Source: Haliotis rubra (lineage: Eukaryota). Taken from it: 64,000 bases of DNA. A program made the position numbers. Of this stretch, positions 14,583-26,500 are shown one piece after another (positions within the stretch are counted from its first letter, which is position 1; every line of letters starts with the position of its first letter). The DNA is taken from assembly GCF_003918875.1 (NCBI RefSeq), contig NW_025766980.1:1798001-1862000 (forward strand). The letters are read 5' to 3'.

Positions 14583-17500
14583 AAACGTTATTTTGCTTCA
14601 TTTTAGTGTAAATGAATCCACCCCGATTTTATAAGCTGAAACTCGTTTTCTCGTGTTCCTGTGTTGTGATCTTTCGACGAATTTAAAACATATTTACACG
14701 AACCGACCGTTTACATAGACAACATTTCGGATTTAATCGCATTAATAGTACTATTATCAAAGACGTGGGAGTTACGTCCCTTACATGAGCCGGGATGACG
14801 TGATTGTTTGAATCTGATAATGCCCCTGATAGTCACCCTTAACCCGTCAACTGGTAAACACCTCAGGGGCACAATGACCTTTTCATTCAACATTAAAGTA
14901 GCATGGCGTGATATGCTTAAATAATGATTTAAGCAGTTTAAAAACAATGATGAAACATTCGCTGAATAGTCAGTGAAATTAAAACACCTGTATGGGTCGC
15001 CGGGTTGACTGAGAGTATGCCTCTTCCAATAATTCCAACAAAAACTCCCACTGTCTAGTGTTTCTCACGGGTTTTCTCATAATGTCGATGTTGAAAGAAT
15101 GCCAGCACATCCGAGGAGAGTATAAACAAACTGGTAAAGACGATCAATGTGACTCCAGTTGCACCAATGCTTGTGGAGGACTTCCGCTCATCTGGAGCAC
15201 TGATGTACTTTATGACGGTCTTCGTCAAGTTTCTTCTGTCAAGAAGCAGGTTGCCTCGAATCTCCTTCTTCTTTGCGTCGACTGACTGAGACGAGAGGTC
15301 ATTGAGTCGGTTCTCTGGGATACAGAAGCACCTGCAGACCTGGTAGACAACTTGTCCAGGGTTTGAATTGGAGATGTATGTTGTGATGGAGTGAGTGGAT
15401 GTTTGTCTGAAACCGGAAGTGACGCTTGTGTACGTTTGAGTATGATCTGGATTCTGTAAACTGACGCTATCAGAGTTGCTGAAGTCTGTGGTACTTGAAA
15501 CAACGGTGGCGTCGACATTTGTCAAAGGTGACGCAGATATGACAGATCCTGATCTTGCGTTGGGTGAGTTGATAACATGTGGGTATGTTGACGAAATTTT
15601 GTCGTACCCACTTGTTTGTATCGATGGCTCTTGTGATTGTACACTCATGTCGATACTCGACCATATGGCGGTTGAGGGATGCGGTGACACAGTGTCATCA
15701 TATGATGACCAAACAGACATCGAGCTCCACTCTGATGACGATGAACTTTCCGTCTTAGTGATCTGTACAATGTCATCCGTTGAAGATGATGCAAGAGGTA
15801 TAACAGTGTTGGTGTTCAATGATGACCCGATGACTTCAGATGACCCTACGGATGTCATCATGTCATACCCAGATGATGATACTGCCGTTTCGGTGGCAAC
15901 GCTACTGGTATTGAAGGGAAGAGACGCCGAAAAGGACTGAGAAGGGGCCGATATTTCTGAAAGAACAGTGGACAACTGTAAAGAAGCACGGACAACGCTC
16001 AGGCGTTTATTAATACATCACATCAGCATAGTGCGCGAGACAGTAGTATGTTACTGATGTATGTAAATGACATTGGTAAAAAGCAATAAACCTAGGCCTA
16101 AATGAATGCATCACATTTATCCTTCCAAACAAGTCGAAATGTAACCATAACTGAATGTAAACCTCCACCAGATATTGGGGCGGTGGGGTAGCCTAATGGT
16201 TAAAGCGTTGGCTCGTCACGCCGAAGACCCGGGTTCGAATCCCCACATGGGCACAATGTGTGAAGCCCATTTCTGGTGTCCCCCGCCGTGATGTTGCTGG
16301 AATATTGCTAAAAGCGGCGTAAAACCAAACTCAGTCAGTCAGTCCACCAGATATTCTCGCACACAGTGTCTCTAATTAACTGTTTATTATCAATCGATTA
16401 ATATATAATAACTAGAATGACATGGTAAATATAAGCGACAGTCCTCTATAAGGATAAAAAAAATTATATATGTCTTTAAACTGATCAAAACTAAAGACGA
16501 CATATTACTGACATTTCTGTTCGGGAAAGACATTTTCAAGGTTCAGAGTATGAAAAGTAGATATTCTTCGCACTAGAAGTGAAAACAATACCTATTATCC
16601 TTATGACACTAACAGATCTACAATTGTAAATCAACTACATGTAGTCAGCTTGGGTCCCTATGCTCATACATCTAACTCCGGGGGAGTTTACTTCTGAGAG
16701 TGACCAGGGTGTCGTTGTACAAAGCGATATTAGCACTAAGATGACCGTAACTTCCATACCCAAGTGTAAATGAGTTTCTTAAAAACATATTAAGTAATTG
16801 GAAACAGACAGAGCGAGTTAAATCTTTGTTAGTGTTTCAGAAGAGTCACAAAGGTTACCTCCACATGTTCCATCATCCGGACCAGTGACTTCCGTCCCTG
16901 ACCCTGCACCTGTCAGTGGTCTCTCACATACAAACGGCATGACTTCATCACAGAGCACAGTACCCCAATAACCGTCCACTGTGGCCATGGCACAGTGTTC
17001 GCCACTGGTCTGAGATTGGTTGCCATTGACTTCCCAGTTGGTGTAGATCATTGGGGAACAGTCCGCCCACACCCAGCGGCCATTGTTGAAGCTGTGCCAG
17101 GACCCTCCTATGTAGTGCTTAGGCGCTGGAAAAAATATTATTTTACAGCTGTGCATTTTGACACACTGCTGCTATGTATCACGGCGGGTTTCTTGTCGTA
17201 ATACTTGACCGTATCAGATATTGATACAAGGCGGTTGTTTGGTACATAAGGAGTATTTCTTATTTGGTATGAAAACCGTTTGTAATTAGAGTTGCCTATT
17301 TTATGTATTGTACTGTTGTTATTGCCACTGATGATAGAACCACTTATTGTCACCGGTTCCTGAACCATGCCAACTGTCGAGTTTTCATGTATACAATAAT
17401 CTATCCTGTATGTATCTGAACATAGTCAACGAATTCAATCAGTGATAAGAACTTCCCAAAGTCTGATGAAAAGACAAGTCTGTGGATTCTTTCTAACGGT

Positions 17501-23500: not shown

Positions 23501-26500
23501 AGCCATCATTGTCTCCACGGGTCACGTACAAAGTTATGTCATCGTTGCTTTTGACTCTGACTCCAGTATCTTGTGCTGCTGTTGAAATATCCGAGTGTTG
23601 TAGGTTTATGACCAGATTGAGCGTGTGGTCGATTGTATATTGGTTTGTACCACCTGGTCCGGCCATTTCAACTTTCACGACAGTGTCTTCCGGGCCTCGC
23701 ATGTGAAGTGTAATGGGACCGCTGAATGTTGACAGGGGAGGTGAGGGAAAGGCCAGCATGAACTTCCGGCCACGTTCGGTCATATATTCTGTGAAAAGAG
23801 GGAAACATTCATAATAAGTATTATATTATTCATGGGCACGGAAATAAAGGGAATAACTTCATTGGGTTATTTATGTGTCATAACAAACACAACAGTACAG
23901 GAAGCTCCTTAGAATTACCTGCAACACCTATCTTTGAATATACATTTATATTCCCCGGGACAGATCATCTGTATTTTCTCATATCATCTTCTTCAGTGAT
24001 CAGTTGACCAAGCAGTGCATAGGCTTTGTGTGAAATTTGACTGTTATGTTAATGCTTTAAACGTTTCTGAATATGAACAAAGCCACACTCAACTTGGGGT
24101 TTCCACTACCCCTGGCAACTTGCTTTTAACAACCCTCTTGTATGTGTCCCTTGTTTGAGTCTTGGAGGGGACCAAGTTGAAACGTTTTTTGGCTATGGCA
24201 CATGGTATTGTCAGGCTTGCACAGCCATAAACAGACTTGGTGGATATAGTTATATGTTGTATTCAATGTGTAACACACGCTGTCCTGTATATCGCAGCAA
24301 GAGTTTATGTTGAATTCTAAGATGCCTAGCGTTTAGAACAATCGGAAAAAAAATACATTATCAGACAATAAAGGTATAGTTTTTTGATGACGTAACAATT
24401 GAATGACGTTTTCCCGTCACTGCGCCATTCTAGTGTGCCCCCCTCGTAATCGAACCATTTTACATTACGTCACAATGTAAGCTACGTCACGATGCATGTC
24501 AGTTGTCATCGCCTCGTACGGCCTCGTACGGCCTCCTACAGTAAACTACACCGTTGCATCCAGTTTCTTGGTTTGCTGTTGCTTCACGCAGCTAACATCA
24601 CTGGTGGAAACATTACGTTTATGTTTCACGACGGTTAAAATGTGTCATTTCGACTCACAAGTTTTCAGCGACACGGTAACGTTCGTAATGTTTACATTCC
24701 CACAATGCAATTGTGGAATGTCGCCTGACTACTCAACTTCCTCTGGATGTATTGATCTAAACTTACGCTGGTAGTAGAAATGCAACGTTCATATTGCCCC
24801 ATATGGTTTACGTTAATGACAGATGCAATTAAAATAATTCAGAGAAGATATTTAATCCGAAATTAAACCGTCATCAAACTGTTATCATTTGTTTTTTTCT
24901 GGTAACGTTCGTCTTAACGTAGGGGGCAGAAAAATCAATAGAACAGCGCGCCAGTTAGCCCTGTGCGAGGATTCTTAATTTAGGTCACCGACACCGTCGT
25001 TTGTTTTCTGCCTAAATTAATCGTAATTATCTTTAGAAAGTATTAAATTTGGCATCTTAGAAAAGAAATACACTTCGCCCTACCACCATGTATAGTGTAA
25101 TAAAACACACTTTCGCCCTGAACTATTATAACGTTAAAGCACTCGGACGCAAGCGTCCTCCTGCTTTAACTATACATGGTGGTAGAGCGAAGTGTATATG
25201 CCAATTTATGATTGAATTATTGTCTTTGATAGCGGCGAGTCGACATCGCTTTGTCGCCTTCAGTTCTTTCGATGAGAAAGCGATAACAGCAGACGAGAAA
25301 GCGATAGCGCAAGACTGAAGCGCGATAAAGGGAGAAAGCGAAAGAGAGAAGAGAGAGAAAGCCATATAAAATGTTGTTGATTTCCAGTTATCAGTTCCTC
25401 CCTTTTTATACAGAGCAAATTTAAACATTTTTAGTAGATATATTTATAAATTGAGATAGAATCATGTATCGTCAAAACACACACATGTGTTTGCTTCGTC
25501 TTTTGTAGTATATGAACATTCGCATAAAGTTTTATCTTTAAGTTTTGAGACTTTAATTTCCTTTTTCGGGGACTAACAAGTTATGTTCCTTAAATTTAAT
25601 GCATATACGATCCTTGAATCATAAACATAAAGCAAACAAGGTAGTTTACATACAGATCATACACTGACAAATAGCTGTATGTATTATCTGCCACTGTTCG
25701 TAATGTTTACATCTATGGTCATCTTTCAGACCAGGGCCTCCTTTCACAAAGCACTAAGGTGATCGTAAGTCACTTAGGTAACCTTAGTGCAATGTTAAAG
25801 AATGGGAGTTAAGGTTAACCTTAGTTATGGTTGCTTCGTGAAAGGAGCTCCTGGACTTGAAGCAGAATACGTGCTCGTCCGATTTAGGAATGACATGTTC
25901 ATAATGATTATGATGGATATGTCATGCAGACAGATGTTACACATATAAATTGTTGTGTTTCCGTATAAATACAGTTAGAAAATGTCTTCACCTTCAAGTC
26001 ACATATAAGACTATTCCATACAATAGGAATGGAAGACCTAATGTTATTAAAACTGATTTCTTAAAACTCCTTTCGATCGAACCGTCTTCGGAAATTAAAT
26101 TCAGTTCTAATGCGTTCCAAAATATTTGTCCGACGTTAAGTCGGCTTTCCCACCAGATGAAGCCGAATATAAGTTGGACCCAGTCTGATTATGATATAGT
26201 CACTTGATTCAGACAGACAGAGTCAAACAGACAAGACATACATCAGTCACACATGCATACAAGCACAGACATAGATACGCATACAGACAGGCAGACAGGC
26301 AGACAAGCAGGCAGGCAGGCAGGCAGGCAGACAGACAGGCAGACAAGCAGACAGGCAGGCAGGCAGGCAGGCAGACAGGCAGGCAGGCAGGCAGACAAAA
26401 AGAATACTTCCGGACAACACCGTTAAGACATTTTCGGTCTTGCGTTATCGTGTTGGTAGAAAATGCCACGTGGTCGTTGCTGGAATAATGGCAACACACC

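What the first reader, a model, noticed from the sequence alone, without database searches (positions are those of the whole stretch)
15055..23788. Lectin receptor locus with two possible N-termini: CTL-CTL-mucin-TM with or without an IgGFc-binding domain
Seen: a signal exon (21908-21984, phase 2) and an 80-bp exon (21393-21472, phase 2 to 1) give a complete 653-aa CTL-CTL-mucin-TM protein. About 630 bp upstream, the IgGFc-binding exon ends in a strong phase-1 donor (G|gtgagt) that fits the CTL acceptor at 20840. With the 34998-35037 signal exon this gives ~1006 aa. Unspliced, it stops after LGECT, giving a secreted single domain. Inference: alternative promoters or splicing could produce short membrane, long membrane and secreted forms, or this is a gene fusion or fission in progress.
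Basis: partly seen in the sequence, partly recalled or inferred. Interest (0 to 1): 0.65.

Follow-up and report, generated by a model that had tools for sequence, protein, structure and literature searches.

The report
Abalone lectin receptor gene, one N-terminus
This is an ordinary, already annotated abalone gene for a membrane lectin that always carries the IgGFc-binding-type domain in front; the proposed short version has no support, and the long reading frame is broken by one base in this assembly.

Summary
The window is Haliotis rubra (blacklip abalone). The locus is RefSeq gene LOC124283149.

- **Long form:** The junction 22614->20840 (IgGFc-binding exon to first C-type lectin exon) is the one RefSeq uses. 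Each exon translated on its own matches the 832-aa RefSeq protein.
- **Conservation:** All 5 of 5 database proteins of 525 aa or more that share the last exon carry both domains. They come from four Haliotis species. A third, 29%-identical paralogue in H. asinina does too. This is an old fusion, not a fusion or fission in progress.
- **Far signal exon:** Exon 35037-34998 is supported, because its junction motif ACSAEYM recurs in paralogue N-termini.
Exon 23788-22614 is not one open frame. The frame shifts at a four-T run (23466-23463) and stops at 23441-23439. This could be a residual error of a Nanopore-based assembly or a recent lesion; I could not tell which.
- **Short form:** The exons at 21984-21908 and 21472-21393 look better than typical chance, but no homologue or annotation supports them.

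Interest is low.

The parts
34998..35037 (-). Exon 1: start codon plus a 13-residue hydrophobic signal peptide. 40 nt, phase-1 donor GTAAGT.
   Evidence: The junction motif ACSA|EYM equals the N-termini of paralogues P0003, P0004 and P0153.
23789..34997 (-). Intron 1 (11,209 nt), loaded with Tc1/mariner-type copies. These include an intact 344-aa transposase ORF at 31311-32342 (+) and a decayed copy at 27584-28120 (-).
22614..23788 (-). Exon 2 (1175 nt): the IgGFc-binding-type domain, about 390 aa, ending in the phase-1 donor G|GTGAGT. It is split into two frames in this assembly.
   Evidence: Pfam PF17517 at 105.4 bits. Alignment to P0002 and P0003. AlphaFold model of the downstream frame is all-beta with pLDDT 83.
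23463..23466 (-). Four-T run where the reading frame changes. The upstream frame matches relatives up to ..SF, and the downstream frame matches from FY.. onward. The upstream frame stops at 23441-23439.
20841..22613 (-). Intron 2 (1773 nt), with two SINE-like repeat copies at 22019-22179 and 21570-21777.
   Evidence: (copies elsewhere in the window, e.g. 36031-36261 and 50449-50687).
21908..21984 (-). It has an ATG, 25 codons with a strongly hydrophobic stretch, and a perfect CAG|GTGAGT donor. It lies 35 nt downstream of a SINE-like copy. It is unsupported by any homologue.
21393..21472 (-). It is open in frame, with weak sites (acceptor 8/12, donor 3/6), and has no homology evidence.
20646..20840 (-). 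Exon 3: first half of C-type lectin domain 1.
   Evidence: P0001 residues 233-296.
19902..20150 (-). Exon 4: second half of lectin domain 1. It has QPT where 4 of 6 family members have QPD, and WQN at the WND position.
18473..18664 (-). Exon 5: first half of lectin domain 2. It is 63/64 residues identical to the same-species paralogue P0003.
16859..17125 (-). Exon 6: second half of lectin domain 2, with no canonical sugar/Ca motif.
15055..15956 (-). Exon 7. It holds a Ser/Thr-rich stalk (80 S+T in the first 205 aa), a conserved Cys-containing juxtamembrane module, a 21-residue membrane span, a 12-residue cytoplasmic tail and the stop codon.
   Evidence: Tail module shared with 11 other proteins. 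Atlas neighbours are unnamed mollusc proteins.

Best explanation
One seven-exon gene on the minus strand, Haliotis rubra LOC124283149, encodes a type I membrane glycoprotein. Its order is: signal peptide, IgGFc-binding-type all-beta domain, two C-type lectin-like domains, Ser/Thr-rich mucin stalk, a conserved mollusc juxtamembrane module, membrane span, and a 12-residue tail. All six introns are phase 1.

The form carrying the IgGFc-binding domain is the canonical form and, as far as any evidence goes, the only one. The front domain and the tail are the constant parts of a wider family. The middle is exchangeable: two lectin domains in Haliotis, and EGF repeats or nothing recognised in other members.

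The protein most likely sits on a cell surface and holds ligand-binding domains out on a glycosylated stalk, for adhesion or recognition. It probably does not signal by itself, given the tiny tail (inferred). Canonical Ca-dependent sugar binding is doubtful in this copy.

In this assembly the big exon is one base short at a four-T run, so the full frame is closed. I rate this about even between a residual indel of the Nanopore-based assembly (or one allele) and a recent true lesion. The intronic 'signal exon plus 80-nt exon' is most likely a fortuitous open path.
For: Shown:
- Exon-by-exon translation reproduces RefSeq protein P0001, with one junction residue between consecutive exons.
- Pfam finds PF17517 and two PF00059 stretches in P0001-P0004 and P0006.
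- 5 of 5 proteins of 525 aa or more that share exon 7 carry both domains. They are H. rubra x2, H. rufescens, H. cracherodii and H. asinina.
- P0006 is a third paralogue, from H. asinina.
- Among 152 proteins, 5 have the IgGFc part, the lectin part and the tail. 7 have IgGFc plus tail without lectin. 0 of 114 lectin-only proteins have the tail. Of those 7, Pfam finds EGF in five and only the IgGFc domain in two.
- The signal-exon junction motif is shared with paralogues.
- The membrane span scores mean hydropathy 2.0 over 21 residues, followed by a 12-residue tail.
- The frame break maps by alignment to 23466-23463.
- Both half-frames are otherwise intact. There is no excess of unique changes against the H. 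rufescens orthologue: 52 vs 44, p=0.48; upstream part 9 vs 4.
- The published H. rubra assembly is Nanopore plus Illumina, polished with Racon and Pilon (PMC6774278, passages read).

Inferred: the function, the cell-surface role and the artefact-versus-lesion odds.
Against: - The candidate intronic first exon is unusually good. It combines a perfect donor with a very hydrophobic N-terminus. This was matched in 0 of 1000 shuffles, and in 10 of 1000 when the donor threshold is relaxed to 5/6. The 11-kb intron 1 holds no decoy of that quality.
- Decoys in introns 5 and 6 have weak donors, 3-4 of 6.
- No RNA data were available, so no transcript or isoform is shown directly.
- RefSeq did not repair the frame and starts its protein at an internal Met without a signal peptide. 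That is what one expects if the break is real in the assembled DNA.
- Lectin domain 1 has QPT where 4 of 6 relatives have QPD. This could hint at decay.
- The family was found only in Haliotis among the hits I could name.
Confidence: 0.8

Rival explanations
1. The one-base loss is real and fixed. The locus is a young pseudogene, or makes only a truncated product without a signal peptide from the internal Met. No functional receptor is made.
For: - The frame is closed in the assembly.
- RefSeq's model begins at an internal Met and lacks a signal peptide.
- QPD is replaced by QPT in lectin domain 1.
Against: - There is only one lesion in about 3 kb of coding sequence.
- Both halves of exon 2 stay open and conserved.
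- There is no rate acceleration against the orthologue.
- The break sits in a homopolymer, and the assembly is built on Nanopore reads.
Confidence: 0.35
2. An alternative promoter inside intron 2, next to a SINE-like copy, drives the 21984-21908 exon. This gives a lectin-lectin-mucin membrane protein with its own signal peptide, either beside the long form or as a rescue if the long frame is truly broken.
For: - ATG, a hydrophobic stretch (hydropathy 2.61 over 10 aa) and a 6/6 donor. This is rare in shuffles: 0 to 10 of 1000.
- An open path to the phase-1 acceptor at 20840.
- The exon lies 35 nt downstream of a repeat copy.
Against: - No protein with this layout was found: 0 of 5 and 0 of 114.
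- The RefSeq name carries no isoform label (the naming habit is recalled).
- The 80-nt exon has weak sites.
- With about 17 kb of intron in this gene, one decoy of this quality is expected roughly once in ten genes. This is my extrapolation.
- The peptides are too short to search.
Confidence: 0.1
3. Fusion or fission in progress: the IgGFc-binding exon and the lectin gene are, or are becoming, separate genes. The first would give a secreted single domain by read-through.
For: - The frame stops soon after the donor if unspliced.
- 1.8 kb separates the two parts.
Against: - The fused layout is conserved in four species and three paralogue lineages.
- The junction residues are conserved.
- The IgGFc domain and the membrane tail travel together even where the middle differs.
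Confidence: 0.03

Closest known systems
Haliotis 'uncharacterized protein' family: LOC124283149 and LOC124283089 (H. rubra), LOC125376198 (H. rufescens), and unnamed entries of H. cracherodii and H. asinina
   Same: The whole layout matches: IgGFc-binding-type domain, two lectin domains, stalk and tail. The window encodes LOC124283149 itself.
   Different: The window's copy has the frame break. It has QPT instead of QPD in lectin domain 1. Its stalk is shorter than in the 1073-1109 aa paralogues.
Vertebrate IgGFc-binding protein (FCGBP) and relatives with Pfam PF17517 at the N-terminus
   Same: The N-terminal domain family is the same.
   Different: No vWD/C8/TIL units were found by Pfam in P0001-P0004. 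This protein is membrane-anchored rather than a secreted gel-former. That FCGBP has such units and is secreted is recalled, and echoed in passages of PMC7333891. Abalone have no IgG, so the name says nothing about the ligand.
Mannose-receptor family (MRC1, MRC2, PLA2R, DEC-205, FcRY)
   Same: These are the best solved-structure sequence matches of the lectin pair of paralogue P0003, E 1.5e-29 to 1e-13. They are also type I membrane lectins with tandem lectin domains.
   Different: There are only two lectin domains here. Pfam found no ricin-type or fibronectin type II domain. The tail is 12 residues, with no recognisable endocytosis motif (what such motifs look like is recalled).
IgGFc-domain / EGF / tail proteins (P0083, P0090, P0092, P0095, P0108; P0105 and P0118 without EGF); source organisms not named by the library
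   Same: The N-terminal domain and the C-terminal juxtamembrane/membrane module are the same.
   Different: EGF repeats, or nothing recognised, stand where the two lectin domains are.

Membership tests
Pfam PF17517 IgGFc_binding domain | Match to the family profile above its gathering score | tested here: met
   105.4 bits against a cut-off of 25.6, profile positions 13-231 of 297, on ORF 22600-23484. The upstream 128-aa ORF gives no Pfam hit, but it aligns to the region in front of the Pfam match in P0002 and P0003.
C-type lectin-like domain (PF00059) | Match to the family profile above its gathering score | tested here: met
   On RefSeq protein P0001: 104.6 bits, two stretches. On single exon ORFs: 34.7 and 31.8 bits for the second halves, and 18.9 and 17.1 bits (below 22.6) for the first halves.
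Ca-dependent sugar-binding C-type lectins | EPN or QPD motif together with WND (motif definitions recalled) | tested here: not met
   Domain 1 has QPT and WQN. Domain 2 has neither motif. The relatives P0002, P0003, P0153 and P0006 keep QPD in domain 1.
Haliotis IgGFc/lectin/mucin membrane family | Signal peptide, IgGFc domain, two lectin domains and the conserved tail, in that order, in one open frame | tested here: inconclusive
   All the parts are present and in the right order. The frame is interrupted once, at 23463-23466, in this assembly.
Type I membrane protein | N-terminal signal peptide and a single C-terminal membrane span | tested here: met
   Exon 1 is a hydrophobic 13-mer matching paralogue signal peptides. 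The best 21-residue window has hydropathy 2.0, followed by a 12-residue basic tail. Only simple hydropathy was computed; no dedicated predictor was run.
Gene with alternative promoters / N-terminal isoforms | A second transcript start or an annotated isoform with another first exon | tested here: not met
   No lectin-only protein appears among the 5 hits sharing exon 7. P0001's cluster has one member. Transcripts themselves are not testable with these tools.
FCGBP / gel-forming mucin-like proteins | Repeated vWD-C8-TIL units (recalled) | tested here: not met
   Pfam gave no such families for P0001-P0004 or P0006.
Mannose-receptor family | Ricin-type domain, fibronectin type II domain, and 8-10 lectin domains (recalled) | tested here: not met
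   Only two Lectin_C stretches and no other such domain.

The most novel reading that the evidence does not exclude
The one-base loss is real and has cut off the ancestral signal peptide and IgGFc-binding domain. A newly exonised stretch of intron 2, next to a SINE-like insertion, now supplies a start codon and signal peptide. The lectin-mucin receptor would then survive in a shortened form. This would be a caught-in-the-act case of domain loss rescued by de novo first-exon birth.
Probability: 0.05. Interest if true: 0.55.

Novelty: new member of a known kind. Interest (0 to 1): 0.22.

Why it matters
As it stands, little. The gene model is already in RefSeq, and the domain layout is shared by several abalone genes.

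Three points have modest value:
- IgGFc-binding-type domains in molluscs can head membrane receptors whose middle modules are swapped through phase-1 introns. I found no paper describing this in three text searches.
- The RefSeq protein for this gene is N-terminally truncated because of a single-base break that deserves checking against reads.
- One lectin exon appears homogenised between paralogues.

If the rescue-by-new-exon reading were true, it would be a neat example of how receptors lose domains.

Tried and rejected
- **Cluster look-up:** The listing of cluster members, for names of unnamed hits, was switched off. Organisms of P0083, P0090, P0092, P0095, P0105, P0108 and P0118 therefore remain unknown.
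- **Solved structures by sequence:** For the IgGFc-type frame the only hit had E=0.5, which is meaningless.
- **Fold search:** The pLDDT-83 model gave 0 PDB matches with E<=0.001, and TM scores around 0.1-0.2. The fold gave no mechanistic lead.
- **Atlas search of the tail:** It returned only unnamed mollusc clusters.
- **Repeat origin of the candidate exons:** The two candidate exons do not overlap repeats detectable within the window. 'The exon is just part of a repeat' is therefore not shown.
- **Bypass of the frame break:** Phase-1 AG sites exist inside exon 2 (e.g. 23414, score 11/12). Using them would delete the first ~125 residues of the domain, and nothing supports this.
- **Literature:**, with passages read, found nothing on this layout.
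- **Could not be reached:** Orthologous genomic DNA of other abalone.
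Full report
**What the window is.**
The stop-to-stop ORF 22603-23484 (minus strand) is 99% identical to NCBI protein 'uncharacterized protein LOC124283149 [Haliotis rubra]' (P0001, 832 aa). That search returned 3 proteins with E<=0.001 among 2499 candidates of 516-2000 aa. The other two were P0002 (H. rufescens LOC125376198, 992 aa, 67% identical) and P0003 (H. rubra LOC124283089, 1073 aa, 54% identical, same 3.7-Mb contig). The window is therefore abalone, not human. 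It holds one run of 164 N at 41188-41351, which I did not touch.

**How searches were made.**
I left out the step of joining exons into a model of my own for a search or a fold. Where a joined protein was needed, I used database proteins as the tools returned them (P0001-P0004, P0006, P0153).

**Gene model.**
Each exon was translated on its own and located in P0001. The pieces lie at residues 1-231, 233-296, 298-379, 381-443, 445-532 and 534-832, with one junction residue between neighbours.

| Exon | Coordinates (minus strand) | Content |
|---|---|---|
| E1 | 35037-34998 | start codon, signal peptide |
| E2 | 23788-22614 | IgGFc-binding-type domain |
| E3 | 20840-20646 | lectin domain 1, first half |
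| E4 | 20150-19902 | lectin domain 1, second half |
| E5 | 18664-18473 | lectin domain 2, first half |
| E6 | 17125-16859 | lectin domain 2, second half |
| E7 | 15956-15058 | stalk, tail; stop at 15057-15055 |

All six introns are phase 1 and have GT..AG ends.

Pfam on single exon ORFs gives:
- IgGFc_binding on ORF 22600-23484: E 4.5e-30, 105.4 bits, cut-off 25.6.
- Lectin_C on four ORFs at 18.9, 34.7, 17.1 and 31.8 bits, cut-off 22.6.
- Nothing on the E7 ORF or on two intronic ORFs.

On P0001, Lectin_C scores 104.6 bits in two stretches.

E7 has these features:
- 80 Ser+Thr in its first 205 residues.
- A conserved Cys-containing juxtamembrane module.
- A 21-residue span with mean hydropathy 2.0.
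- A 12-residue tail.

The junction 22614->20840 is exactly the RefSeq junction. The residues around it are conserved in P0002, P0003 and P0153, and less well in P0004 and P0006.

The distant exon 35037-34998 translates to a 13-residue hydrophobic peptide ending ..ACSA. Across the phase-1 junction it continues EYM... P0003, P0004 and P0153 read ..ACSAEYM.. at the same place. That exon is therefore very likely the true first exon. It lies 11.2 kb upstream, across an intron full of Tc1/mariner copies.

E2 is not one open frame.
- The upstream part (ORF 23442-23825) aligns with P0002 and P0003 up to ..SF.
- The downstream part (ORF 22603-23484) aligns from FY.. onward.
- The relatives read ..SFY.. 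or ..EFY.. without interruption.
- The upstream frame runs into TAA at 23441-23439.
- The switch maps to the four-T run at 23466-23463. The assembly is one base short there.
- Arithmetic agrees: 40 + 1175 nt ends in phase 0, but the donor needs phase 1.

This explains why RefSeq's protein starts at an internal Met (832 aa, no signal peptide) instead of about 1006 aa.

**Is the break real?**
Points that favour an intact gene or a very recent break:
- Both halves are otherwise intact.
- At sites where three outgroup paralogues agree, the window's protein has 52 unique changes against 44 in the H. rufescens orthologue (p=0.48). The upstream part has 9 against 4. There is no sign of long-standing decay.
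- The published H. rubra assembly was built from Nanopore reads with Illumina data and polished with Racon and Pilon (PMC6774278, passages read). In my recollection such assemblies keep some homopolymer indels.

Points that favour a real break:
- RefSeq did not flag or repair the frame.
- Lectin domain 1 has QPT where four of six relatives have QPD.

I rate artefact or allele versus a fixed lesion at about even.

**The short form.**
The two exons exist as described. Lax control:
- Paths from an ATG through a hydrophobic stretch to the next phase-1 acceptor also occur in introns 5 and 6, but not in introns 3 and 4.
- In 300 dinucleotide shuffles of intron 2, 297 gave some path, 212 gave one with hydropathy >=2.0, and 92 gave one with hydropathy >=2.61.

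Strict control, which goes against my reading:
- Hydropathy >=2.61 together with a first donor of at least 5/6 appeared in 10 of 1000 shuffles. With a perfect donor it appeared in 0 of 1000.
- The real 11-kb intron 1 has no such case.
- The decoys in introns 5 and 6 have donors of only 3-4 of 6.

The first exon is therefore better than typical chance. The 80-nt exon is mediocre (acceptor 8/12, donor 3/6). The candidate exons do not overlap repeats detectable in the window, but the first lies 35 nt downstream of a SINE-like copy.

Homology gives the short form no support:
- All 5 proteins of 525 aa or more that share E7 (among 6763 candidates) carry both PF17517 and PF00059.
- None of 114 lectin-only hits carries the tail.
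- The exon peptides (25 and 26 aa) are below the search minimum.

**Family context.**
A full scan with paralogue P0003 found 3958 proteins at E<=0.001, and the best 150 were listed. I classified 152 proteins locally with three sub-queries:
- 5 have the IgGFc part, the lectin part and the tail (P0001-P0004, P0006).
- 28 have the IgGFc part only, of which 7 also have the tail.
- 114 have the lectin part only.
- 5 matched neither domain sub-query at 1e-5 (by subtraction from 152).

Of the 7 with IgGFc plus tail, Pfam shows EGF repeats in five and nothing further in two. P0006 is a 29%-identical paralogue from H. asinina. The front domain and the tail are thus constant and the middle is variable. 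The fused lectin layout predates the split of four Haliotis species and three paralogue lineages. 'Fusion or fission in progress' is not supported.

**Function (inferred).**
The protein is a cell-surface glycoprotein that presents an all-beta N-terminal domain and two lectin-like domains on a mucin stalk.
- The AlphaFold model of the downstream frame has pLDDT 83.1 and pTM 0.84.
- It has no solved structural relative: 0 matches at E<=0.001.
- The lectin pair of paralogue P0003 is closest by sequence to the mannose-receptor family.
- The canonical Ca/sugar motifs are missing in this copy.

The ligand is unknown.

**Literature.**
Text searches and passages of PMC7333891 and PMC6003135 mention IgGFc-binding-like proteins in mollusc mucus and shell. 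None mentions this layout.

**Not checked.**
- Transcripts.
- Reads over the T run.
- Orthologous introns.
- Supplements of papers, which were not consulted.

Noticed in passing
window 18473-18664 (-), exon 5: This exon's peptide is 63/64 identical to the same-species paralogue P0003. The neighbouring exons are 44-55% identical to P0003. The H. rufescens orthologue is only 84% identical here. This looks like exon-scale gene conversion between paralogues; an assembly mix-up is not excluded.
   Followed up: partly
window 31311-32342 (+); also 27584-28120 (-) and 6911-7180 (-): Tc1/mariner-type transposase ORFs. The copy at 31311-32342 is an uninterrupted 344-aa ORF with DDE_3 and HTH domains, so it is possibly a young element inside intron 1.
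   Followed up: no
window 47452-47763, 52158-52517, 58321-58644 (all -): Fibrinogen C-terminal domain exons of at least two tandem fibrinogen-related genes lie upstream of the locus. The region is a neighbourhood of recognition-type genes.
   Followed up: no
window 21570-21777 and 22019-22179, with copies at 36031-36261, 50449-50687, 18907-18984 and 30242-30461: A SINE-like repeat family of about 230 nt, 70-91% identical between copies. It occurs in several introns and intergenic stretches.
   Followed up: partly
window 9481-10305 (-): A reverse-transcriptase (RVT_1) ORF of 275 aa downstream of the gene, presumably a retroelement remnant.
   Followed up: no
window 41188-41351: A run of 164 N. 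It was left as it is.
   Followed up: no
window 15058-15350 (-), end of exon 7: The juxtamembrane/membrane module is shared with IgGFc/EGF proteins. Its Atlas neighbours are unnamed mollusc clusters. By predicted structure, its neighbours include tails of mollusc Lectin_C, Sushi and WSC proteins. It may be a widespread, undescribed mollusc anchoring module.
   Followed up: partly
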